Source: Maritalea sp.
GTDB lineage: Bacteria; Pseudomonadota; Alphaproteobacteria; Rhizobiales; Devosiaceae
Length of the DNA stretch: 64,000 nucleotides
Direction: 5' to 3'
NCBI RefSeq assembly: GCF_051251695.1
Contig: NZ_JBPOEU010000013.1
Span: forward strand, 37,924-101,923
Both the position numbers and the translations under genes were made by a program. Positions 3 to 36,011 of the stretch are shown here, piece by piece (the first letter of the stretch is position 1; the number at the start of each line of letters is the position of its first letter). A model generated the notes under the pieces. That model was not told the DNA's origin and made no database searches. It saw nothing but the letters and a program-made list of their open reading frames with translations.

Positions 3-995
3 ACTTCTGGCGACCTTGACTGGCATTTGAAAGCTGTTGCAACTGCAGACAGCGATTTCGGTCCAGCAATGGCTGTTATTAAGATTTCTGAAAAAGAAGA
101 CGATACATCACGCACCGGTGGTGCTGCAGGTGTAGCTCCAGCAACTTTGACCGCAACTGCTAATGATGTTGTGTTGGAAGAAGGCTATGTTGGTATCGGC
201 GACGCTTCTTCAGTTGTTCTTTATGCTGGTAAAAAAGGCTCAGTTGCTAAAGAAGACGACGACGAAACATTTACAGCAATCTTCGCTCTTGACTCACTTG
301 GTCTATCTGGCGATGCAGCTGGTTCTGACGAAGGTCTAGCACTTGGCGGCGGCGTTGCAACTGGTGGTTATGTTGTTCAAATGTCTGCAAGCCTTGGTGA
401 TGGCGTAAACGCTGTTGTTGCTCTTGAAGATCTTGGTACAGTGAACAATGCTTCTTTGGTTGGCGCTATCGGTGTTAAGCAAGATTGGGGCACTGCACAC
501 GCTACGTTCATTCTTGACGATCTAATTCAAGCTGCAAACGTATGGTCACTTCATACTGGTGCAACTTTCAATGTTGACACAGTGAGCTTCCGTGCTGCTT
601 TCGAAACAGCTAGCGATAGCACATGGTCAGCTTTGCTTTCTGGTAAAGCAACATTTGACATGTTCACATTGGCAGCTGGCGTTGAATTCGATAACGCAAG
701 CCAGTGGGAAGCTGCTGTTTCAGGCGTAGCTAAAGTTGATGACACTACTACATTGACTATTGCTGGTCGTTTCGACGACAACAACGACTGGGATGTTGCT
801 TTGAAAGGCGCGTTTAAAGTATCTGATACTTTGACTGCTTCTGCTAAAGTTAACTTCGACGAAGCAAGTGTTACCAAATTCGAGGGTGACATTGACTGGA
901 TGCCAGGTGGCGGTGCTACTGTTAATGTTGGCTTCAATGCTGACAGCACAGGTCAAACAACTGTTTCTACAAAATTCAAGAAAACATTCGAATAG
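3..995 (+). CDS. Outer-membrane porin (alphaproteobacterial beta-barrel), 5'-truncated by the window edge
   Basis: The frame is open from position 3 (TSGDLDWHLKAVATADSDFGPA...). Alternating amphipathic beta-strand pattern with terminal aromatic residues, codon bias typical of a highly expressed gene, and a strong terminator downstream. Confidence 0.75.
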   Translation, partial: TSGDLDWHLKAVATADSDFGPAMAVIKISEKEDDTSRTGGAAGVAPATLTATANDVVLEEGYVGIGDASSVVLYAGKKGSVAKEDDDETFTAIFALDSLGLSGDAAGSDEGLALGGGVATGGYVVQMSASLGDGVNAVVALEDLGTVNNASLVGAIGVKQDWGTAHATFILDDLIQAANVWSLHTGATFNVDTVSFRAAFETASDSTWSALLSGKATFDMFTLAAGVEFDNASQWEAAVSGVAKVDDTTTLTIAGRFDDNNDWDVALKGAFKVSDTLTASAKVNFDEASVTKFEGDIDWMPGGGATVNVGFNADSTGQTTVSTKFKKTFE

Positions 996-1026
996 TCCTT
1001 TAGGGCAATTTGATTTTGAGTTTGAG

Positions 1027-1054
1027 AAAGCCCGGCATAAGCCGGGCTTTTTTT
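1027..1054 (+). terminator. Rho-independent terminator of the porin gene
   Basis: AAAGCCCGGC-ATAA-GCCGGGCTTT hairpin followed by a T run. Confidence 0.9.
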
Positions 1055-1257
1055 GTGTCTAGTGGGAACCGAACACGAAATTGTTGACAGTCCACTTGAT
1101 TGTCAGAAAATGCTGGTACGAAAAGTATTTGTGCTTAAGATTCTTTCCCAACCGAATGTGTCAACAAGTTAAGCGGGCGGCGGCTTGATTGATACAGAAC
1201 TGCACCAGCTGCGGTAAATTGTACGAATTTGATGCGCCCAGCGGAGTAGCTTGCCAA

Positions 1258-4200
1258 ATGGGATCGATAAAACGTGTGAAATGGTTCACTCTGCTGATTG
1301 CGGGGGTGCTAACCATTGGTGTGGGCAGTGCTGTAGCTGTTTGGCAAACACAGGCATATGTTGAAGCCGAACTCAACGCTGGCGTCAGCGAAAAGCTCCA
1401 CAAGTTTGGGCATAAATGGACTAGCGTCGATGTTGTGGGCCGCGATGTCACAATTTCTGGTCTAAGCACCAACACTGCTGAAATTGATGAAATCACCAAA
1501 CTTGTAGCCGCGCATAATGGTGTTCGTAGTGTCAGTTTAGATATTCAAGTTGCACCAAAGATGGAGCCCTTCAAACTCTCGCTTTCCCAAGACGGCAAGT
1601 CTCGTTCAATGGTTGGCGGTATGCCAAATGATCACGTGACCAAACAAGTCACAGATTGGTTTGGAGAGGGCGACGTGTCTTTGGCGTTGGCGTCAGGCAG
1701 CCCCAGACCAAGTGATTGGCGCGATGCAAGTCAGTTTGCAATTCGGCTGTTGCAGCATTTTGATCAGGGCAATGTAGAAGTTGAAGGCCTGACCGTTTCC
1801 ATGGCGGGACGGGCTAAAGACCATGACGCCTACCACACTCTTGATGTTGTGTTTGGGGCTGGGTTTCCGGACAATTTGGTGCGTGGCAGTGGTGAGATTA
1901 TTCCGCCGCTCGTAGCTCCGTATGAGCTGTCAGGTCAAAAAAGCTCGCAAGGTAATTTGTCTCTTGAAGGAAATGTTCACTCACAGCCAGCAAAAGCAGA
2001 ATTAAGGGAAGCTGGGTTAGACGTTGCAAACTTACAAATCAGTTCAGGCGCACCGAAAGACTTTGAGAACTCTTTGGGTTTGCTCGTGAAATCGCTTGAT
2101 GAGCTTTTGAATGGCGAATTCTCGATCTCTGATGACCGCATACAAATTCAAGGTGAAGTGCCGAACTTTGAGGTTTATGACGATGTTAGCGGGTTGGGTG
2201 ACCAACTGGGTGCATTCAATGTAACGGTAAATCTCGAGAGGCCAGTAATCCAGCCATTTACATTGAAGCTTGAGTTGCGCGATCAACAAATGGTTGTTTC
2301 GGGGTATGTGCCCAGCGAAGAAGGTTTGGCCAAACTGCAAATGGCATCAATGCCAGTAGACGTGTCTAAAGTCAGAGTAGCCCGCGGTGCGCCAGAGCAA
2401 TTTGAAACTGCCACCGAAATGTTAGTGGATGCATTAGGCCATTTATATGATGGTGCTTCGGCAGAGATCGAAGATCAAAAAATTGTTGTGCAAGGAAAAG
2501 CAATTACACCGCAGGACTTTTTGGCGCTCCAAGAAAAGTTTGGCACCCAAATCCCGGACGGATATGACCTCGCCATAGCCAGCATCGAACTGCCGACCGT
2601 GTCGCCATATTCCTGGTCTCTGACCAAAGAGACGACAGATCGAGTTCGGATGGCCGGATATTCGCCATCAAAACAATTCAACTCCCAAGTTTTGCAGCAG
2701 CTTAATGGCGTTAAGTTGATGGATGAGACTTTGCCAGCCATCGGGCAACCGGCTGAATTTGAAACGGTAGCAATTGCGAGCGCCGCTGCTTCAAACCATA
2801 TGGTTGAAGGGCAGGTAATCCTGAATGATGGGCAATGGTCCCTTGCTTCGACGATTGCCAATAAAGAGATGAAAAACAACATCTTTACAGAGTTTTCTAA
2901 TAAAGGGATTAAAGTTGAAAGTTGGCAAGCCCAATTCACAGAACTAGCGCCACCTGTAGCAAAACCGTATCGATTTAGTGCCGTTTGGACCAATGAAGCT
3001 GAATTTTCGTTTGATGGTTATGTGCCAAATGAAGATCTGCAATTGCTTCTTTTGGGCATGGGCACTTCAAACGTCAGCCTAGCGAGTGGCGAACCTGATC
3101 GTTTTGAAGAAATCGCCAATATTGGCATTTCTGCACTTCAACAATTGGAAGAAGGTGAGTTTGGTTTTGACGGCGAACGTTGGCATATTTCGGGTACGGC
3201 AACCGATACGCAAACAGTAGAAAAAATCAAAAATGACCTAGGCGATTTTACGGCTGATGGTTCCGGTTGGACCATTGAGTTGACTGCGCGGATTGTTCCG
3301 GTGGTCCCATATATTTGGTCCGCACAGAAATCCAAAGACGCCGACATTGTCGTCAGTGGTTATGCACCGGAACAGGCTGTGATCGACGAATGGATGGCAT
3401 TGCCCAATGTATCTGGGCAACCAAAAATTGGTGTTGGTGCGCCTGACGAGTTTCAATCCCGTGCGAACGTTGCGCTAAGTAGTTTGCAGGAACTAGAAAC
3501 AGGACGCGCCAGTCTTTCTGGGAATACCTGGTCGCTGATTGGTCGTGCTAAATCTGATCAAGCCCTTGAAAATATGATGAAAATTTTGACGCCGTTCAGC
3601 TCGTCATTCCGACTGGATGTTCATGTTGTACAACCGATAGACCAACTCATCTTTTCAGCCGAACAGACAGAAAACGGTCTAATATCATATACCGGATATT
3701 TGGATGACCCCTTGTCGTGGAAGAAAACGCCGGACAATAGAGCGCTGTTCATTGGAAAAGTAATTGAAGAGCGTGAGCCATTTGTCGCACGGATCGAAAA
3801 CGGTCTAGCCGCCGTCCAGATGTTAAACTTCGGACGCCTTTCGTATGATGGGACCGCTTGGAAAATTGAAGGTGAGGTCGCTGACAAAGCGATTGCAGCG
3901 GCGGTGAAACTAACGCTCGGTGACGACGAAGATCCTGTTTGGATGGTGAACTTGTCCAACGCAGAAGTCAAAGCGAAAGCAAAAGCCGAAGCGGACGAGA
4001 AGGAACGTATGGAAGCAGAAGCCAAAGCGAAGGCTGATGCAGAGGAAAGTGCGCGCATTGAAGCTGAAACAAAAGCAATAGCCGCCGAAGAAGCAAGATT
4101 GGAAGCCGAAGCCAGGGCTAAGGCAGAGGCAGAGGCTGAGGCTGAAGAGAAGTTGCGCTTGGAGGCTGAAACGCAGGCAATAGCTGCCGAAAAGGCAAGG

Positions 4201-5343: not shown

Positions 5344-6042
5344 ATGAATGCACCACATCTAATTGAAATTGCGCTGCTAATGCTGGCAGCATTTCTTATC
5401 GGTTGTTTAATCGGATATTTTTTGCGCCGTTTGATGGGCGGTAACGCCCCTGCATCATCTCCATCAAATCAGGCAACGGCCGCTTCCAGTTCTGTTGACA
5501 GCACGGTTGAGAAAACCAGCACCACAACGACCACCGACACCAAAGCTACAGCAAAAAAGGCTCCAGCAGCCAAAAAACCAGTAGCCAAAAAGGTCGCGCC
5601 AGCAAAGTCGTCGGCTTCAAAAGTTGCAACTGCTAAACCTGCGGCCACTAAACCTGCTGCAGCGCGCAAGACTGCGCCTAAAAGCACAGCGATGGCGAAA
5701 AAAGCGACTGCACCAAAGGCTGCCGCTAAACCTACTTCGGCGACCAAACCAGCGGCTGCTAAGAAACCAACCGCAGCAAAAGCAACGGTGGCAACTGACG
5801 GCAAACCAGCGACCTTAACGGCTCCAAAAGGTGGCAAGAAGGACGATCTAAAAACAATCAAGGGTGTGGGACCCAAGATTGAAGGCACCTTGAATAGCAT
5901 GGGCATATATCACTATGACCAAGTCGCTTCATGGGGTGTTAAAGAGGTGAAGTGGGTTGATGAGGAACTGTCTTTTAAAGGTCGAATAGACCGCGAAAAG
6001 TGGGTTTCTCAAGCCAAGCAATTGGCCAAAGACGCAACATAG
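5344..6042 (+). CDS. Membrane-anchored protein with a Lys/Ala/Pro-rich linker and a C-terminal helix-hairpin-helix domain (type found at the C-terminus of some alphaproteobacterial NuoE)
   Basis: N-terminal TM followed by RR, then a low-complexity KKAPAAKK linker, then KDDLKTIKGVGPKIEGTLNSMGIYHYDQVASW...FKGRIDREKWVSQAK. Confidence 0.75.
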   Translation: MNAPHLIEIALLMLAAFLIGCLIGYFLRRLMGGNAPASSPSNQATAASSSVDSTVEKTSTTTTTDTKATAKKAPAAKKPVAKKVAPAKSSASKVATAKPAATKPAAARKTAPKSTAMAKKATAPKAAAKPTSATKPAAAKKPTAAKATVATDGKPATLTAPKGGKKDDLKTIKGVGPKIEGTLNSMGIYHYDQVASWGVKEVKWVDEELSFKGRIDREKWVSQAKQLAKDAT

Positions 6043-29690: not shown

Positions 29691-30893
29691 ATGAAATTCT
29701 TGAAGCGAAACACTGTTAAAATGCTTGCTGGCGCGATCGTCGCCATGTCGCTTGGCGTTTCAGCGCCTTTTGCGCAGGATAGTGTAAGCGCGGCACAAGA
29801 TGCGATCGACTCGATCGAGCCCGTTCTTTCCTACGACACGGCCTACAATCTACAATTAGCCATCCAAAAATATGAAGCGATCGCTGCTGCAGGCGGCTGG
29901 GAGCCGATTTCGCGCGGATCGTACGGTTTAAAGCTTGGCAAAAGTCAGGGCCATGTGCGTGGCATTCGTAGACGTTTGATGGCATCTGGCGATTTGGATC
30001 CCAATCTTCGGCTGTCTGACGAATTTGATGCAGATGTTGATGCTGCGGTACGCCTCTTTCAGGCCCGTCACGGTTTGCGTTTAACGGGCGTTCTTGACCA
30101 AGAAACCTTCATCACCATGAATGTGCCGGTACAGGAAAAGCTCAATCAGCTTCGTCTGAACCAAGCACGTGTTCAGGAATTGGTACCAGCACTCGCAGAT
30201 CAGTATATTGTTGTGAACATTCCTGCCGCTTCAATTGAAGCCGTGTCAAACGGCACCGTTGAGCGCCGTCACACGGCGATTGTTGGCCGTATTGATCGCC
30301 CAACTCCAATTTTGCAGTCCAAAGTCCACCAGATCAATTTTAACCCATATTGGCATGTGCCCAAGAGCATTATTCGCCGCGACATCATCAAATATATGAA
30401 TGATGATCCGCAGTATTTGGCCAATTTCCGGATTAAAATTTATGACGGCAATGGTGAGGAACTCGAGCCAAGCTCTGTTGACTGGAAAACAGAAGAGGCA
30501 GTTCAGTATTCATTCCGCCAGGAGCCCGGTGCTGAAAACTCCATGGGTCATGTGAAAATCAACTTTCACAATAAACATGCGGTTTATCTGCACGATACGC
30601 CTCAAAAATCACTGTTTGGTCAAAACAGACGTTTTCACTCTTCAGGCTGCGTGCGCGTGGATGACGTCGATCAGCTTGTGTCATGGTTGTTGCAGAGCAA
30701 CGGCGAATGGGACCAAAACGCTGTGGACGCAGCATTTGAATCTGGGGAACGTTTAGACGTCAGCATAAAAAATCCAGTGCCGATTATCACGACCTACATC
30801 ACTGCCTGGGCAAACCGCGAAGGTGTTGTTTCGTTCCGTGAAGATATCTACCAATATGATGCGCAGGGCCGAGTGGCATTGGCTAGCGATTAA
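29691..30893 (+). CDS. L,D-transpeptidase (YcbB/LdtP-like) with a peptidoglycan-binding domain
   Basis: Signal peptide, AVRLFQARHGL PG-binding domain, YLHDTP...SSGCVRV catalytic motif. Confidence 0.9.
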   Translation: MKFLKRNTVKMLAGAIVAMSLGVSAPFAQDSVSAAQDAIDSIEPVLSYDTAYNLQLAIQKYEAIAAAGGWEPISRGSYGLKLGKSQGHVRGIRRRLMASGDLDPNLRLSDEFDADVDAAVRLFQARHGLRLTGVLDQETFITMNVPVQEKLNQLRLNQARVQELVPALADQYIVVNIPAASIEAVSNGTVERRHTAIVGRIDRPTPILQSKVHQINFNPYWHVPKSIIRRDIIKYMNDDPQYLANFRIKIYDGNGEELEPSSVDWKTEEAVQYSFRQEPGAENSMGHVKINFHNKHAVYLHDTPQKSLFGQNRRFHSSGCVRVDDVDQLVSWLLQSNGEWDQNAVDAAFESGERLDVSIKNPVPIITTYITAWANREGVVSFREDIYQYDAQGRVALASD

Positions 30894-30911
30894 GAACTAA
30901 AGGGTTCGTCC

Positions 30912-31112
30912 ATGAGAGAGCGTGACGTTACGCCGGTCGGCACCGTTTATTTCGAGTTCATTCAAATGGGTGGGCAAGTGCGAATCGCAGCCATTCATGA
31001 AGAAACCGGCACAGAAGTCATGGCAATTGCACCAATTCAAGCGACTGAGCAGCATATGCGACAGTTGGCGTTGGGCAAATTGCGTCGGAAACTAGCAGAA
31101 GCAAAGTCTTAG
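30912..31112 (+). CDS. Small conserved hypothetical protein (DUF6898-like)
   Basis: VYFEF...G..VR..AI.E.TGTEV pattern recalled from proteins encoded upstream of glyA in alphaproteobacteria. Confidence 0.6.
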   Translation: MRERDVTPVGTVYFEFIQMGGQVRIAAIHEETGTEVMAIAPIQATEQHMRQLALGKLRRKLAEAKS

Positions 31113-31208
31113 CAAGAACCGATTGAACTTTAGACGACTTGGATTACCCAATTCTCTATGATATGCCGTCCTCACCGAAATTGGTCGTTATAATCGCGAG
31201 GATTTTCC

Positions 31209-32495
31209 ATGACCGAAATTTTTCCAAATTTCTTCACCAATTCGCTGGCAGATGTCGATCCTGATGTTGCGCGGGCAATTGATGCTGAACTTAAGCGTCA
31301 GCAAACTGAAATCGAACTTATTGCTTCAGAGAATATCGTCTCTAAAGCGGTAATTCAGGCGCAGGGCACAGTCCTGACCAACAAATATGCTGAGGGCTAT
31401 CCCGGCAAACGTTATTATGGCGGTTGTCAGCATGTTGATGTTGTTGAGAACTTGGCCATTGATCGCGCCAAGAAGCTCTTCGATTGCGCATATGCCAATG
31501 TGCAGCCGAACTCTGGCTCACAAGCCAACCAAGGCGTATTCCAAGCACTTATTCAGCCCGGCGATACGATCCTGGGCATGAGCCTTGATGCAGGTGGACA
31601 CCTTACCCACGGCGCGCGTCCTAACCAATCTGGTAAATGGTTCAATGCGATCCATTATGGCGTGCGTAAAGAGGACGGTCTGTGTGATATGGACCAAGTG
31701 CGTGACTTGGCTAGGGAACATAAACCCAAGCTGATCATTGCAGGTTTCTCCGCTTATTCGCGCGTTCTTGATTTTGCGGCCTTCCGCGAGATTGCGGACG
31801 AAGTAGGCGCCTACTTCATGGTGGATATGGCACACGTTGCTGGCCTTGTGGCTGGTGGCAAATATCCTAGTCCGTTCCCACACGCCCACGTTGCAACCAC
31901 AACTACGCATAAAACGTTGCGCGGACCACGCGGCGGCATGATTCTGACAAACGATGAAGCGCTCGCCAAAAAGTTCAATTCAGCGATTTTCCCTGGTATT
32001 CAGGGTGGACCTCTGATGCATGTTATTGCAGCAAAAGCAGTGGCTTTTGGTGAAGCTTTAACAGATGACTTCAAGCAATATATCACTAAAGTTGTCGACA
32101 ATGCCCAAAGCATGTCAGACGCGCTTATTGAAGGTGGGTTGGACATTGCATCAGGCGGTACAGACAACCATTTGATGCTCGTTGACCTTCGTCCTAAAGG
32201 CGTTACCGGTAAGGCAACTGAGGCTGCTCTGGAACGTGCGCACATTACCTGTAACAAAAACGCCATTCCGTTTGATCCGGAAAAGCCTTTCGTAACGTCC
32301 GGTATTCGTGTGGGTACACCAGCGGCAACATCACGCGGTTTTTGTACAGTGAGCTTTAAGACTGTCGGCGAATTGATCGTTGAAGTTGTTGATGGGCTTT
32401 CAAAAAATGGCGAAGAGGGCAATGCAAGCGTTGAAGCTGGCGTACGTGAGCAAGTAAAACTGCTCACAGATTCGCACCCGATTTACGCTGATTAG
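31209..32495 (+). CDS. glyA: Serine hydroxymethyltransferase
   Basis: [23 protein letters not shown] and [13 protein letters not shown] motifs. Confidence 0.98.
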
Positions 32496-32510
32496 GCCTC
32501 TGGAGGCACC

Positions 32511-32978
32511 ATGCGCTGCCCATATTGCGGTAATCACGATACGCAAGTGAAGGATTCTCGGCCAACCGAGGATTCTAACGCGATCCGTCGCCGCCGAGTT
32601 TGCTCGGCGTGCGGTGGGCGGTTCACCACGTTTGAACGTGTGCAATTGCGCGAGCTGATTGTCAGCAAAAAATCGGGCCGCAAAGTGCCTTTTGATCGCG
32701 AGAAACTCACGCGATCAATCAAAACCGCTCTTCGCAAACGCGAAGTCGATGCAGAAGCTGCAGATCGAATGATCTCTGGCGTGGTGCGTCGGCTCGAAAG
32801 CATTGGCGAAAACGAAATCACCTCAGAGCAAATTGGCCAACTGGTTATGGAGGGCCTTAAAGAGCTCGATGATGTGGCCTTTGTTCGGTTTGCCTCCGTT
32901 TATAAGAATTTTTCCAAAGCAGATGATTTCAAATCCTTCCTTTCCCAGCTTGATGCCGGAAGTAAGGAAGACGAGTAG
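32511..32978 (+). CDS. nrdR: Transcriptional repressor NrdR
   Basis: MRCPYC...DSR...RRRR.C..C..RFTTFE followed by an ATP-cone. Confidence 0.97.
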
Positions 32979-32989
32979 TTGGGCGGACT

Positions 32990-33165
32990 AAGGTCCAGCT
33001 TGACGCTATTTCTTCCTGTTTCAATGAGGCATTTTATAAAGTACGCCCCATTAATCGGGGGCAGGCAAATGCGGCCTTGCAAATGTGGGCAATGAGATAA
33101 ACATTGAAATTGATCATGCGGCGCGATATGCAGCCAGCTTGATCGCAATGAACTATGCTCGCTAA
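32990..33165 (+). pseudogene. ribE: Degraded 3' remnant of riboflavin synthase (ribE)
   Basis: 33076-33165 translates LANVGNEINIEIDHAARYAASL...*, matching the RibE C-terminal VGD.VNLE.D..ARY..RL motif. A weaker upstream motif in another frame (32993: VQLDAISSCFNE, similar to VALDGISLTVNE) is collinear. No start codon; located at the canonical ribE position. Confidence 0.7.
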
Positions 33166-33185
33166 TTCGCAATTTGAGGACCAAA

Positions 33186-33638
33186 ATGACAGATAAGCCA
33201 AGTATTTTGCTCATAGAAGCGCGCAATTATGAAGAACTTGCCGACGAGTTGGCAACAGGCGCCATGGAAGTTTTGGACGAAGCAGGCGCTGTTGTGACAC
33301 GTATTTCTGTCCCCGGCGTACTCGATATACCCAGCGCGCTATCGATGGCGCTTATTGGTGCAGAAGTTGCTGATGCTGATGTTTACGATGGTTATGTCTT
33401 GCTTGGCGTGGTTATTCGATCTGAAACATCCCGCTATGAGATTGTCGCAAATGAGAGCGCACGCGCAATTATGAGCATGGTGACGTCTGAAGGCTTAGCC
33501 TTAGGTAATGGTATTCAAACTGTGGAAAACCAAGACCAAGCGCGGGGTCGGGTTAAACGAACCAACAAAAATAACGGCGCAGATGCCGCCAGAACAGCAC
33601 TTGCCATGATCGACGTGAAAAAGAAGTTTGGATTGTAA
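33186..33638 (+). CDS. ribH: Lumazine synthase homologue with degenerate active-site motifs
   Basis: RibH1-like backbone (VPG...IP, LG.VIR.ET, NES.RA, GNGI.TVEN..QA) between nrdR and nusB; RBS GAGGA precedes ATG 33186. Confidence 0.85.
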   Translation: MTDKPSILLIEARNYEELADELATGAMEVLDEAGAVVTRISVPGVLDIPSALSMALIGAEVADADVYDGYVLLGVVIRSETSRYEIVANESARAIMSMVTSEGLALGNGIQTVENQDQARGRVKRTNKNNGADAARTALAMIDVKKKFGL

Positions 33639-33641
33639 GAG

Positions 33642-34124
33642 ATGAACGAAGATAAACAACAACGTTCGCCCGGACAGGCCAATCAGCGCGGCGCGGCGCG
33701 TCTAGCTGCGGTGCAAGCGCTTTATCAAATGGATATCGGCCGAAGTTCGCTTGAGGCGACTTTGACCCAGTTTGACATGTTTTATTTGGGTAAAGAAGTA
33801 GAGGGAGACGAGTATCTCCCTGCGGACAAAGACTATTTCACCCAAATCCTAAAAGGCGTGAAAGCGCATCAGCTCAAGATTGATCCAATAGTCGATAATT
33901 CACTGGTTGAAGGTTGGCCCGTTACTCGAATCGATAGTACACTCCGTGCGATCCTGCGTTCTGCAGCGTTCGAATTATTGTACAAAAAAGATGTTCCCGT
34001 ACGTGTAGTCATCACTGAATATGTCGATGTTGCACGGGCGTTTTTCGAAAAAGATCAACCTGCCATGGTCAATGGCGTTTTGCATAATATTGCGCAGATA
34101 TTTAGACCAGACGAACTGAAATAA
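33642..34124 (+). CDS. nusB: Transcription antitermination factor NusB
   Basis: RGAARLAAVQALYQMD, RAILRSAAFEL and VNGVL motifs. Confidence 0.96.
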   Translation: MNEDKQQRSPGQANQRGAARLAAVQALYQMDIGRSSLEATLTQFDMFYLGKEVEGDEYLPADKDYFTQILKGVKAHQLKIDPIVDNSLVEGWPVTRIDSTLRAILRSAAFELLYKKDVPVRVVITEYVDVARAFFEKDQPAMVNGVLHNIAQIFRPDELK

Positions 34125-34139
34125 ACGGAGTCCCCAAAG

Positions 34140-35351
34140 ATGACTGAGCCCGAATTTAATAAAGAAAAAAATGCGGGCCGAAACATCGGGCTCTTGGCTT
34201 TAACGCAGGCTGTCGGCGGCTCTAGCCAAGCTATCGTTATGGCTGTTGGTGCGCTTACTGCCGCAAATCTAGCCACAGATAAAAGCCTAGCAACACTTCC
34301 AACAACAGCAATGATTATCGGTTTGGCCCTTATGGCCGGACCAGCAACAAAAATCATCTATTCGATTGGACGTCGAAATGGATTTTTGGTGGGCGCAGGA
34401 CTAGGGGTGATTGCGGGATTGGCCGCCGCCGCCGCCGTTACTTTGTCATCCTTTATTTTGTTCGCCTTGGCACTTTCCATTGTTGGAATGGGTGCGTCAT
34501 TTACCCAACAATACCGTTTTGCCATTGCCGATAGTGTGCCTGATGGCATGAAGGCGCGTGCCATCTCTTTGGTTCTGCTTGGCGGTGTTGCTGCAGGCTT
34601 TTTTGGGCCAAGACTTTCTTACATTTCAAAGGACTGGTTGGGCGGGGTTGAATTTGCAGGCTCGTTTTTGATCATCTCGTTTCTATCGATCGCGGCGATC
34701 GTTTTGCTTTCACAAACCAAACTTGCCCCGATTGTGAAGCCAAAAGTAGGGGATGCCAAAGGCCGGTCGGCCATGGCACTGATCAAAGTGCCTGAAATCG
34801 GCATTCCGATCCTAACAGGAATGATTTCGTACGCGCTGATGACGTTTGTCATGGTTGCTGCACCTTTGGCCATGGTTCATGTGTGCGGTCACTCTGCGGA
34901 ACAAGCAACCACAACAATTCAGTGGCATATTATTGCAATGTTCGCGCCCAGTTTGGTCACCGGTAACATCATCAATCGTATTGGCGCTCACGCAACGGTA
35001 GGCATAGGTCTTGTGTTGATTCTCATCTGCGCGTTGATCAACCTCAACGGCGTATCAGTTACCCATTTTGATGCCGCTTTGATCATGCTCGGTGTGGGCT
35101 GGAACTTCGGGTTTATCGGCTCGACAACGTTGTTGTCTCAGGCTTACCGTCCAGAGGAAGCCTCAACTGCTCAGGGCCTAAACGAGCCGTTGGTGTTCGG
35201 TTCAATGGCTGTCGCTTCAATTAGCTCAGGCGTTTTGTTGAATACGTTGGGTTGGCAATCAATCAACGTGATGGTGTTGCCAATCGTCACAGCAGCGCTT
35301 GCCCTGCTGGCGTGGGGCGATTATCGCCAGCGCAAGCTTCGCACCCAATAA
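34140..35351 (+). CDS. rfnT: MFS transporter, probable riboflavin transporter RfnT
   Basis: 12-TM MFS (QQYRFAIAD, GWNFGFIG). It occupies the position after nusB where RfnT is encoded in Rhizobiales rib operons. The substrate is assigned from synteny only. Confidence 0.6.
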   Translation: MTEPEFNKEKNAGRNIGLLALTQAVGGSSQAIVMAVGALTAANLATDKSLATLPTTAMIIGLALMAGPATKIIYSIGRRNGFLVGAGLGVIAGLAAAAAVTLSSFILFALALSIVGMGASFTQQYRFAIADSVPDGMKARAISLVLLGGVAAGFFGPRLSYISKDWLGGVEFAGSFLIISFLSIAAIVLLSQTKLAPIVKPKVGDAKGRSAMALIKVPEIGIPILTGMISYALMTFVMVAAPLAMVHVCGHSAEQATTTIQWHIIAMFAPSLVTGNIINRIGAHATVGIGLVLILICALINLNGVSVTHFDAALIMLGVGWNFGFIGSTTLLSQAYRPEEASTAQGLNEPLVFGSMAVASISSGVLLNTLGWQSINVMVLPIVTAALALLAWGDYRQRKLRTQ

Positions 35352-35356
35352 CAAAA

Positions 35357-35389
35357 AGGCGGGAAGTTCGTTTATGAAACTTCCCGCCT
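35357..35389. terminator. Bidirectional terminator between the MFS gene and bamE
   Basis: AGGCGGGAAGTT-N9-AACTTCCCGCCT with an A run before and a T-rich tract after. Confidence 0.85.
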
Positions 35390-35416
35390 AATTTTCTTTG
35401 AATACTTCTGTTTCGC

Positions 35417-35857
35417 CTAGAAACTAAGCGAGCCGAGCAATTGCTGCAGGAATGAGCGGTCTTGCCCAAATCCTGGCGTTGTGCGGGACACTGTGTCGAT
35501 CACCTTGCCATCTTCAAGCTTGTAAACTGCTTTGTCGATCACACGATCTTTTTTGTCGAAATAGACAGCAACAACAGTGCGGTCCTTGACGTTTTTCATA
35601 CCGAACGCGGTCTGTTCGATCTTCGTTTCTACATAATAATAAGCTTCTTCATCGCCAAACGTATTTTTTGACTGAGGCGAACCCATGACGAATTCGACCA
35701 ATTGCTTGGATACACCTGGACGAACCTGGGCTAAGCTATCCTCAGGAATATCATAACCCTGAGTGCGTTGTTGGGTCAGGCAGCCGGAAAGCAAAAGGGC
35801 TGCCGCGATAACGCTGACAAGTGAAAAGAAGCGGATTGCTGTACGCATAACCATCAT
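35417..35857 (-). CDS. bamE: Outer-membrane assembly lipoprotein BamE
   Basis: Lipobox LLSGC; G.SK..V...MGSP and YYY motifs. Confidence 0.85.
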   Translation of the reverse strand: MMVMRTAIRFFSLVSVIAAALLLSGCLTQQRTQGYDIPEDSLAQVRPGVSKQLVEFVMGSPQSKNTFGDEEAYYYVETKIEQTAFGMKNVKDRTVVAVYFDKKDRVIDKAVYKLEDGKVIDTVSRTTPGFGQDRSFLQQLLGSLSF

Positions 35858-36011
35858 TTAATTGGCTTTCTCACAAAAACTCTATTAACAAGACAAATCG
35901 GCGCAACTTGATACGCGCATTCCAAATCTGTTTAGCTGCCTAAGTCGTAACATGGCAAGTCACAGATAGAACTTAAAAAATTCGACCTGCAGCGGAACCT
36001 ACGACAAACCA

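What the first reader, a model, noticed from the sequence alone, without database searches (positions are those of the whole stretch)
32979..33185. Fossil of a deleted ribD-ribE block: riboflavin synthase remnant hidden in the nrdR-ribH spacer
Known: the alphaproteobacterial operon order is nrdR-ribD-ribE-ribH-nusB. Seen: only 207 bp separate nrdR from ribH. Within them, 33076-33165 encodes LANVGNEINIEIDHAARYAASL..., matching the RibE C-terminal VGD.VNLE.D..ARY..RL signature. A weaker collinear motif (VQLDAISSCFNE) lies upstream in another frame, implying a frameshifting deletion. Inference: ribD and most of ribE were deleted and the strain may be a riboflavin auxotroph.
Basis: partly seen in the sequence, partly recalled or inferred. 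Interest (0 to 1): 0.72.

Follow-up and report, generated by a model that had tools for sequence, protein, structure and literature searches.

The report
Leftover tail of deleted riboflavin genes
The short gap between nrdR and ribH holds the decayed last ~30 codons of the riboflavin synthase gene ribE, a scar of a ~1.5 kb deletion that removed ribD and most of ribE. It is an ordinary deletion scar, but it belongs to a wider dismantling of this bacterium's own vitamin B2 pathway.

Summary
The main observation is real. Window 33066/33075-33185 aligns collinearly, at 78-86% identity (E 6e-20 to 3e-16), with the last ~90 bp of ribE plus the ribE-ribH spacer of four species of the same genus. All four carry glyA-nrdR-ribD-ribE-ribH-nusB. 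A flanking-gene tree puts this genome inside that clade (100/100), so about 1.5 kb was deleted here.

The first ~87-96 bp of the spacer matches nothing.

The scar is one of several losses:
- The native ribBA is cleanly deleted at its own locus (contig C1).
- No DHBP synthase (RibB) was found in the 99.5%-complete assembly.
- The retained ribH is open, but F22, E58, G84, H88 and K135 (B. subtilis numbering) are replaced. It changes about as fast as the dead remnant.

An FMN-riboswitch-controlled RibN-like importer and RibF remain.

One complication is a foreign rib cluster on a 5.8 kb contig (C69): FMN riboswitch, ribH2 with TGA at codon 5, ribE, ribA, ribD, and no ribB.

Riboflavin auxotrophy is therefore likely (about 0.6) but unproven. 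This is an ordinary kind of feature that happens to be well preserved.

The parts
31209..32495 (+). glyA (serine hydroxymethyltransferase), the conserved left flank of the operon
   Evidence: ORF. It is 89-92% identical to the congeners' glyA in the same position.
32511..32978 (+). nrdR, intact. In congeners its stop codon abuts the ATG of ribD.
   Evidence: Pfam Zn_ribbon_NrdR plus ATP-cone. The TAA|ATG junction in congeners is shown.
32979..33065 (+). Filler of unknown origin at the deletion junction (87 bp; up to 33074 if only the confidently aligned part is counted as remnant). It contains a small hairpin at 33044-33063.
   Evidence: No similarity above shuffled controls to the congeners' ribD or ribE at DNA or protein level. 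No other copy in the genome or in any fetched locus. The hairpin was seen. There is no Rfam match.
33066..33155 (+). ribE remnant: the last ~26-30 codons of riboflavin synthase, decaying. It has no start codon, an upstream in-frame stop at 33052-33054, and its original stop codon is mutated away, so the frame runs on to 33165.
   Evidence: Collinear DNA alignment with the ribE 3' ends of G003, G005, G006 and G007. Protein comparison. tblastn E 5e-4 genome-wide. Private changes: 7/45 at codon positions 1+2 and 4/18 at position 3.
33156..33185 (+). Ancestral ribE-ribH intergenic spacer with the ribH ribosome-binding site (TTTGAGGACCAAA), retained
   Evidence: Aligns with the congeners' ribE-ribH spacer.
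33186..33638 (+). ribH (type-1 lumazine synthase). The ORF is intact, but active-site residues are replaced and evolution is accelerated.
   Evidence: Pfam DMRL_synthase 108 bits. Below the TIGR00114 cut-off (73.6 against 84.6), whereas congeners score 97.6-104.4. F22N, E58D, G84S, H88R and K135N in 1RVV numbering. dN is 3-4 times that among congeners.
33642..34124 (+). nusB, starting 3 bp after the ribH stop; intact
   Evidence: ORF. It is 76-82% identical to the congeners' nusB. No private changes at invariant columns.
34140..35351 (+). RfnT-like/CalT MFS transporter, the last gene of the ancestral operon
   Evidence: Pfam MFS_1. The motifs MTFVM and HIIAM can be read in the translation. The family was shown to import copper, not riboflavin (PMC6362234).

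Best explanation
The spacer is a deletion scar. The ancestor of this genome carried the usual Rhizobiales-type operon glyA-nrdR-ribD-ribE-ribH-nusB-MFS. One deletion of about 1.5 kb removed all of ribD and the first ~170 codons of ribE. It left 87 bp of unassignable filler, the last ~26-30 codons of ribE, and the original ribE-ribH spacer with the ribH ribosome-binding site. The remnant has no start codon and has lost its stop codon. It accumulates changes at all codon positions, so it is non-coding debris. It probably survives because it lies on the read-through transcript that carries ribH and nusB (inferred).

The scar is one step in the loss of the native riboflavin pathway:
- ribBA was excised cleanly at its own locus.
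- No DHBP synthase remains in the assembly.
- The surviving ribH has lost Phe22, His88 and other conserved residues. It changes at nearly the rate of the dead remnant.

Flavin supply most likely comes from uptake through an FMN-riboswitch-controlled RibN-like importer, followed by RibF (inferred). A foreign, riboswitch-led ribH2(TGA)-ribE-ribA-ribD island on contig C69 cannot complete the pathway without ribB.

What is shown: the homology, the deletion, the second deletion, the absence of ribB from the assembly, and the residue replacements. What is inferred: auxotrophy (about 0.6), co-transcription, and loss of RibH activity.
For: - Collinear homology of window 33066/33075-33185 to the ribE 3' end plus spacer in four congeners, E 6e-20 to 3e-16; 0/300 shuffles reach the score.
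- tblastn E 5e-4 genome-wide.
- Synteny: the interval is 1634-1662 bp in congeners against 207 bp here.
- The tree places G000 inside the full-operon clade at 100/100.
- The junction is reproduced at 100% identity over 1077 bp in an independent Logan contig.
- ribBA: PF00926 is absent from G000 but present in all 8 congeners, and the control rings in 14/14 genomes. The syntenic locus C1:134599-136549 has a 106 bp gap where G005 has ribBA, with both flanks aligned. In the three full-operon congeners covered by the search (G003, G005, G006), the only GTP cyclohydrolase II domain lies in that ribBA.
- ribH: 4 private changes at columns invariant in 19 orthologs, against 1, 0 and 0 in glyA, nrdR and nusB. 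Residue mapping to 1RVV. Below the NCBIfam cut-off, unlike congeners. Private change rate at codon positions 1+2 is 28/265, against 7/45 in the remnant (p = 0.31) and 19/794 in glyA (p = 3e-7).
- Uptake route: an FMN riboswitch at C29:2573-2736 precedes a 305-aa EamA protein, conserved in congeners. RibF is present. RibN of alphaproteobacteria keeps the FMN riboswitch (PMC4418817).
Against: - Contig C69 carries apparently intact ribE, ribA and ribD behind a good FMN riboswitch (110.8 bits). Its composition fits the genome. This looks like replacement rather than pure loss.
- ribB could sit in one of the gaps of a 114-contig assembly.
- ribH is still an open frame of full length. From memory, mutagenesis of B. 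subtilis lumazine synthase found no single residue to be absolutely essential, so some activity may remain.
- dS is saturated, so branch-specific omega could not be estimated properly.
- nusB is also somewhat accelerated in this genome.
- The origin of the 87 bp filler is unexplained.
Confidence: 0.9

Rival explanations
1. Replacement, not loss. A horizontally acquired rib island (C69: FMN riboswitch, ribH2, ribE, ribA, ribD) made the native ribD, ribE and ribBA redundant, and they were then deleted. The strain is still a prototroph. In this reading ribB lies in unassembled DNA, and lumazine synthase comes from the native ribH or from read-through or re-initiation of ribH2.
For: - C69 carries full-length RibE, RibA and RibD that pass NCBIfam cut-offs, behind an FMN riboswitch of 110.8 bits.
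- Its tetranucleotide make-up sits at the 79th percentile of the genome's own chunks, and its GC is 48.1% against 49.2%.
- Keeping the native ribH would make sense if ribH2 is broken.
- The C69-type RibE is unique to this genome among 31 relatives and 400 genomes of the class, with at most 41% identity. That fits a recent acquisition.
Against: - No DHBP synthase was found in a 99.5%-complete assembly, while the same search rings in 14/14 control genomes and 8/8 congeners.
- ribH2 has TGA at codon 5, right after a perfect Shine-Dalgarno and ATG. The stop is reproduced in an independent assembly.
- The native ribH has lost F22 and H88 and drifts like the dead remnant.
- Both facts point to no selection for lumazine synthesis.
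Confidence: 0.3
2. Assembly or binning artefact. The nrdR-ribH junction is a mis-join or a collapsed variant, and the real organism has the full operon.
For: The genome is a 114-contig draft whose exact sequences recur in neighbouring SRA runs, so it may be a metagenome bin.
Against: - The junction lies in the middle of a 118 kb contig.
- A Logan contig assembled independently from run SRR34144892 is 100% identical over 1077 bp across the whole scar.
- The remnant has diverged 14-22% from the congeners and lost its stop codon. That is evolutionary decay, not a mis-join.
- A second, independent rib deletion exists on another contig.
Confidence: 0.03
3. Chance resemblance. The RibE-like peptide is a coincidence in an ordinary intergenic spacer.
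For: The Pfam Lum_binding model gives no hit on the 36-aa peptide, and the whole-genome family search did not flag this site.
Against: DNA-level collinear alignment at the orthologous position in four genomes, E down to 6e-20. None of 300 shuffles comes close: 78-92 observed against a highest shuffled score of 31.
Confidence: 0.01
4. Exaptation. The spacer, including the remnant, is now kept for a function, for example a new promoter or regulatory leader for ribH-nusB, or a small ORF (GTG 33085-33165, 26 aa).
For: - The ribH ribosome-binding site and spacer are conserved.
- nusB needs transcription through this region.
- A 26-aa ORF exists.
Against: - No promoter-like site on the + strand and no Rfam family.
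- The remnant changes at codon positions 1+2 as fast as at neutral-looking sites, 7/45.
- The nrdR-nusB spacers in seven other genomes of the family keep no such piece.
Confidence: 0.05

Closest known systems
The Rhizobiales riboflavin operon nrdR-ribD-ribE-ribH-nusB-rfnT (described for Mesorhizobium, Sinorhizobium and Agrobacterium; PMC6362234, PMC4418817)
   Same: The same flanks in the same order and orientation: glyA-nrdR ... ribH-nusB-MFS. No FMN riboswitch on this operon. Four congeners carry the complete version.
   Different: ribD and about 85% of ribE are missing. Only a decayed 3' piece of ribE is left. ribH has lost conserved catalytic residues.
Gene remnants left by deletion during loss of a vitamin pathway (reductive evolution toward auxotrophy, with an importer retained)
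   Same: Several genes of one pathway are removed at separate loci. There is a short recognisable 3' remnant, a surviving partner gene under relaxed constraint, and a retained riboswitch-controlled importer. Other genomes of the same family have already reached nrdR-nusB adjacency, and some lack RibB, RibE and RibH altogether.
   Different: The genome is of normal size (3.7 Mb), not a reduced symbiont. It also carries a foreign partial rib cluster, so the end state, auxotrophy or replacement, is not settled.
Brucella RibH1 (PDB 2F59, 2I0F), the type-1 pentameric lumazine synthase of alphaproteobacteria
   Same: It is the best match among solved structures for the retained ribH (E about 1e-41 over the full length).
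   Different: Brucella RibH1 and all 19 compared orthologs keep F/Y22, E58, G84, H88 and K/R135. The window's protein has N, D, S, R and N at those positions.

Membership tests
Riboflavin synthase RibE (Lum_binding, PF00677) | Significant match to the Lum_binding profile | tested here: not met
   No Pfam hit on the 36-aa frame at E up to 10. The genome-wide PF00677 search did not list this site. The piece covers only the end of the second domain.
Riboflavin synthase RibE (Lum_binding, PF00677) | Orthologous position and collinear sequence homology to intact ribE genes | tested here: met
   78-86% DNA identity with the ribE 3' end of four congeners at the same place in the operon. tblastn E 5e-4.
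Riboflavin synthase RibE (Lum_binding, PF00677) | Complete two-domain ORF of about 200 aa with a start codon | tested here: not met
   Only ~26-30 terminal codons remain. There is an in-frame stop at 33052-33054, no ATG, and the original stop codon is lost. It is a gene fragment, not a gene.
nrdR-ribDEH-nusB-rfnT operon of Rhizobiales | Gene order nrdR, ribD, ribE, ribH, nusB, MFS on one strand | tested here: not met
   The flanks and ribH-nusB-MFS are present. ribD and ribE are absent from the locus. Congeners meet the full order.
Lumazine synthase type 1 (RibH; PF00885 / TIGR00114) | Domain match over the curated cut-off | tested here: inconclusive
   Pfam 108.4 bits, above the 26.7 cut-off. 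NCBIfam TIGR00114 73.6 bits, below the 84.6 cut-off, while congeners score 97.6-104.4.
Lumazine synthase type 1 (RibH; PF00885 / TIGR00114) | Conserved catalytic residues Phe22, His88 and Arg127 (B. subtilis numbering; PMC12871164) | tested here: not met
   Phe22 is Asn14 and His88 is Arg83. Arg127 is kept as Arg122. In addition E58D, G84S and K135N.
RibN riboflavin importer (EamA/DMT) | EamA-family membrane protein directly behind an FMN riboswitch in an alphaproteobacterium | tested here: met
   FMN riboswitch at C29:2573-2736, 115.3 bits. 305-aa ORF at 2843-3760 with Pfam EamA. The criterion is from PMC4418817.
RibN riboflavin importer (EamA/DMT) | Riboflavin transport activity | not testable with these tools
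   Needs an uptake assay or complementation of a laboratory riboflavin auxotroph.
CalT / RfnT-like MFS copper importers | MFS fold with MxxxM and HxxxM motifs, encoded after ribH-nusB | tested here: met
   Pfam MFS_1. MTFVM and HIIAM are read in the translation of 34140-35351. The criteria are from PMC6362234.

The most novel reading that the evidence does not exclude
The retained ribH is not simply a young pseudogene. It may be a pseudoenzyme kept open by selection, either because its translation is coupled to the nusB gene that starts 3 bp after its stop, or because it has a non-catalytic flavin or lumazine-binding role. The C69 element may be a small mobile 'riboflavin cassette': it is bounded by 29-bp inverted repeats and carries a riboswitch, four rib genes and a toxin-antitoxin pair. 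Such a cassette could displace native vitamin genes.
Probability: 0.12. Interest if true: 0.55.

Novelty: new member of a known kind. Interest (0 to 1): 0.33.

Why it matters
On its own this is an ordinary deletion scar. Its value is as a dated snapshot. One genome is caught midway between relatives that keep the full nrdR-ribDEH-nusB operon and relatives that have lost all rib genes from the locus. It still shows the remnant, a drifting partner enzyme, a second clean deletion and a retained riboswitch-controlled importer.

It gives a testable prediction of vitamin B2 dependence, which is useful for cultivation and for reading cross-feeding in the source community. It also warns annotators that the 'lumazine synthase' here probably does not signify a working pathway.

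Tried and rejected
- **Pfam Lum_binding on the remnant peptide.** No hit, because the piece is too short.
- **Rfam on 30000-36000.** No RNA family in the spacer.
Its scores fall below shuffled controls against RibD and RibE.
- **Origin of the first 87-96 bp.** No match to the congeners' ribD or ribE, to the genome, or to any fetched locus.
- **Promoter scan.** Nothing on the + strand of the spacer.
- **Weak Lum_binding hit with stops at C32:39857-40066.** It lies antisense inside an ABC-ATPase gene and is chance.
- **Remnants in the nrdR-nusB spacers of seven other genomes of the family.** None found.
- **Source of the C69-type RibE.** At most 41% identity in plasmids, in 31 relatives and in 400 genomes of the class.
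- **Pairwise dN/dS.** dS is saturated, so private-change counts were used instead.
- **The look-up of sequencing runs was closed.** Read depth of C69 against C20, and reads across the junction, could not be checked.

Full report
**What is at the coordinates.** The + strand carries glyA (31209-32495), nrdR (32511-32978), a 207-bp spacer (32979-33185), ribH (33186-33638), nusB (33642-34124) and an MFS transporter gene (34140-35351). No Rfam family matches in 30000-36000.

**Is the RibE resemblance real?** The Pfam Lum_binding model finds nothing on the 36-residue peptide. The whole-genome PF00677 search did not flag this spot either.

Four species of the same genus (handles G003, G005, G006, G007) have glyA-nrdR-ribD(341 aa)-ribE(201 aa)-ribH-nusB. 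In them the nrdR stop abuts the ribD ATG, and the nrdR-to-ribH interval is 1634-1662 bp. The results of comparing the spacer with that interval were:
- blastn gives one strong collinear hit in each genome, at the very end of ribE and running on through the ribE-ribH spacer: 78-86% identity, E 6e-20 to 3e-16.
- None of 300 shuffles approaches the score, 78-92 observed against a highest shuffled score of 31.
- The multiple alignment places the start of homology at about 33066-33075.
- The congeners' RibE ends ...AGDEINIEIDQMARYAARLIEMQ*, and the window reads ...VGNEINIEIDHAARYAASLIAMN.
- tblastn of a congener's RibE against the whole 3.7 Mb assembly recovers the site at E 5e-4.

The remnant has no start codon and has an in-frame stop just upstream. 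Its own stop codon is lost (CAA TAA has become AAC TAT). It carries private changes at 7 of 45 first and second codon positions and 4 of 18 third positions, counted where the four congeners agree. It is decaying non-coding DNA.

**What is not supported.** The first 87-96 bp of the spacer shows no similarity to the congeners' ribD or ribE at DNA or protein level. The frame holding VQLDAISSCFNE scores below the mean of shuffled controls. This stretch has no other copy in the genome or in any fetched locus. There is thus one collinear remnant, not two pieces in different frames. The origin of the filler is unknown.

**Direction and reality of the event.** The full operon is found in every genome of the order whose locus I read through nrdR, so it is ancestral. 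A maximum-likelihood tree of GlyA+NrdR+NusB puts the window's genome inside the clade of the four full-operon congeners with 100/100 support. That clade is apart from a second clade of the genus (G001, G002, G004, G008) in which nrdR is followed directly by nusB. The event is therefore a lineage-specific deletion of about 1.5 kb.

A Logan contig assembled independently from run SRR34144892 is 100% identical over 1077 bp, including the whole scar.

**The scar is one of several.** Pfam DHBP_synthase (RibB) has no match in this 99.5%-complete assembly. All eight congeners have a ribBA, and the control rings in 14 of 14 well-known genomes. The ribBA locus of G005 is syntenic with contig C1:134599-136549 of this genome. 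There the two flanking genes are 106 bp apart. The alignment jumps from the end of the upstream gene to the last few bases of ribBA and its downstream hairpin. This is a second clean deletion. In the three full-operon congeners that the search covered (G003, G005, G006), that ribBA also holds the only GTP cyclohydrolase II domain.

**The retained ribH.** It is a full-length open frame and the best match to Brucella RibH1 structures. However, it carries private substitutions at four columns that are invariant in 19 other orthologs across the order. GlyA, NrdR and NusB of the same genome show 1, 0 and 0 such changes.

Mapped on B. subtilis lumazine synthase (1RVV), the replacements are F22N, E58D, G84S, H88R and K135N, and R127 is kept. 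Phe22, His88 and Arg127 are the residues cited as important for catalysis (PMC12871164). Further measures point the same way:
- The protein falls below the TIGR00114 cut-off (73.6 against 84.6 bits), while congeners score 97.6-104.4.
- dN to the congeners is 0.149-0.175, against 0.042-0.044 among G003, G005 and G007.
- Its private-change rate at codon positions 1+2 (28/265) is not distinguishable from that of the dead remnant (7/45, p = 0.31). It is far above glyA (19/794, p = 3e-7) and nrdR (3/285).

dS is saturated, so a proper branch omega could not be obtained. nusB is also mildly accelerated (15/260).

I read ribH as released from selection for catalysis. Why the frame is still open is not settled. 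It may be a young pseudogene, or it may be kept open because nusB starts 3 bp after its stop; this second option is an inference.

**How flavins are probably obtained.** The genome has two FMN riboswitches. One, at C29:2573-2736, precedes a 305-aa EamA-family membrane protein that is conserved behind the same riboswitch in the congeners. That arrangement is the signature of the RibN riboflavin importer of alphaproteobacteria (PMC4418817). RibF is present.

The MFS gene after nusB carries the MxxxM and HxxxM motifs (MTFVM, HIIAM). It belongs to the RfnT-like CalT group, which was shown experimentally to import copper and not riboflavin (PMC6362234). It should therefore not be counted as a riboflavin importer.

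**The complication: contig C69.** The second riboswitch (110.8 bits) heads a cluster on the 5.8 kb contig C69:
- a type-2 ribH whose ATG follows a perfect Shine-Dalgarno but which has TGA at codon 5
- ribE (222 aa), ribA and ribD
- SRPBCC and DUF1801 genes and a toxin-antitoxin pair

The TGA is reproduced in an independent Logan contig. The contig's composition fits the genome. Its RibE has no relative above 41% identity in 31 relatives, 400 genomes of the class, or the plasmid collection. It therefore looks foreign. It contains no ribB.

But with no DHBP synthase and two impaired lumazine synthase genes, de novo synthesis still looks unlikely. I put auxotrophy at about 0.6. I put the rival at about 0.3, namely replacement of the native genes by the island with ribB hidden in an assembly gap.

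**Family context.** nrdR-nusB adjacency occurs in seven of the genomes examined and needs at least three independent losses on the tree. None of those spacers keeps a recognisable rib remnant. Several genera of the family lack RibH and RibE, and two (G009, G011) also lack RibB. An earlier agent's note names the family as Devosiaceae; I did not check this. Loss of riboflavin genes is thus recurrent in this family, and this genome is the one caught in between.

**Verdict.** The interpretation, a fossil of a deleted ribD-ribE block with possible auxotrophy, is supported. It is a new instance of a well-known kind of feature. Its interest lies in being a clean intermediate stage and in the cultivation prediction it gives.

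Noticed in passing
window 33186-33638: ribH is a full-length ORF but has F22N, E58D, G84S, H88R and K135N (B. subtilis numbering). It falls below the NCBIfam lumazine synthase cut-off, unlike its congeners, and changes about as fast as the dead ribE remnant.
   Followed up: yes
own genome, contig C1:135337-135442 (outside the window): A second rib deletion scar. The native ribBA, present between the same two flanking genes in congener G005, is cleanly excised. Only its last few bases and the downstream hairpin are left.
   Followed up: yes
own genome, contig C69 (L001), 234-3209: A foreign-looking cluster: FMN riboswitch, type-2 ribH with an in-frame TGA at codon 5, ribE, ribA and ribD, followed by SRPBCC, DUF1801 and a HigB/HigA-like pair. 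A 29-bp inverted repeat sits at C69:45-73 and 5757-5785. It could be a mobile element, an assembly-graph feature, or both.
   Followed up: partly
window 34140-35351: The MFS after nusB carries MTFVM and HIIAM, the MxxxM and HxxxM motifs of CalT copper importers. RfnT-like proteins were shown not to transport riboflavin (PMC6362234). Reading this gene as a retained riboflavin importer is therefore doubtful.
   Followed up: partly
own genome, contig C29:2573-3760 (L085): An FMN riboswitch (115 bits) directly before a 305-aa EamA-family transporter, conserved in congeners. It is a RibN-like riboflavin importer candidate.
   Followed up: partly
loci L057-L063 (G001, G002, G004, G008, G009, G014, G016): In seven other genomes of the family, nrdR is followed directly by nusB, with no rib genes and no recognisable remnant. 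The tree needs at least three independent losses. Four of these genomes have a separate ribE-ribBA-ribH cluster elsewhere, and others have no RibE or RibH at all.
   Followed up: partly
window 33642-34124: nusB of this genome also shows a raised rate of private changes at codon positions 1+2 (15/260, against 2-5 of about 250 in G003, G005 and G007). None fall at columns invariant across the family.
   Followed up: no
window 33044-33063: A small GC-rich hairpin (CGCCCCATTAATCGGGGGCA) inside the unassignable filler. It is terminator-like only on the minus strand.
   Followed up: no
own genome, contig C32:39857-40066 (L003): A weak Lum_binding match with three stops. It lies antisense within an ABC-transporter ATPase gene, so it is a chance hit and not another fossil.
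   Followed up: yes
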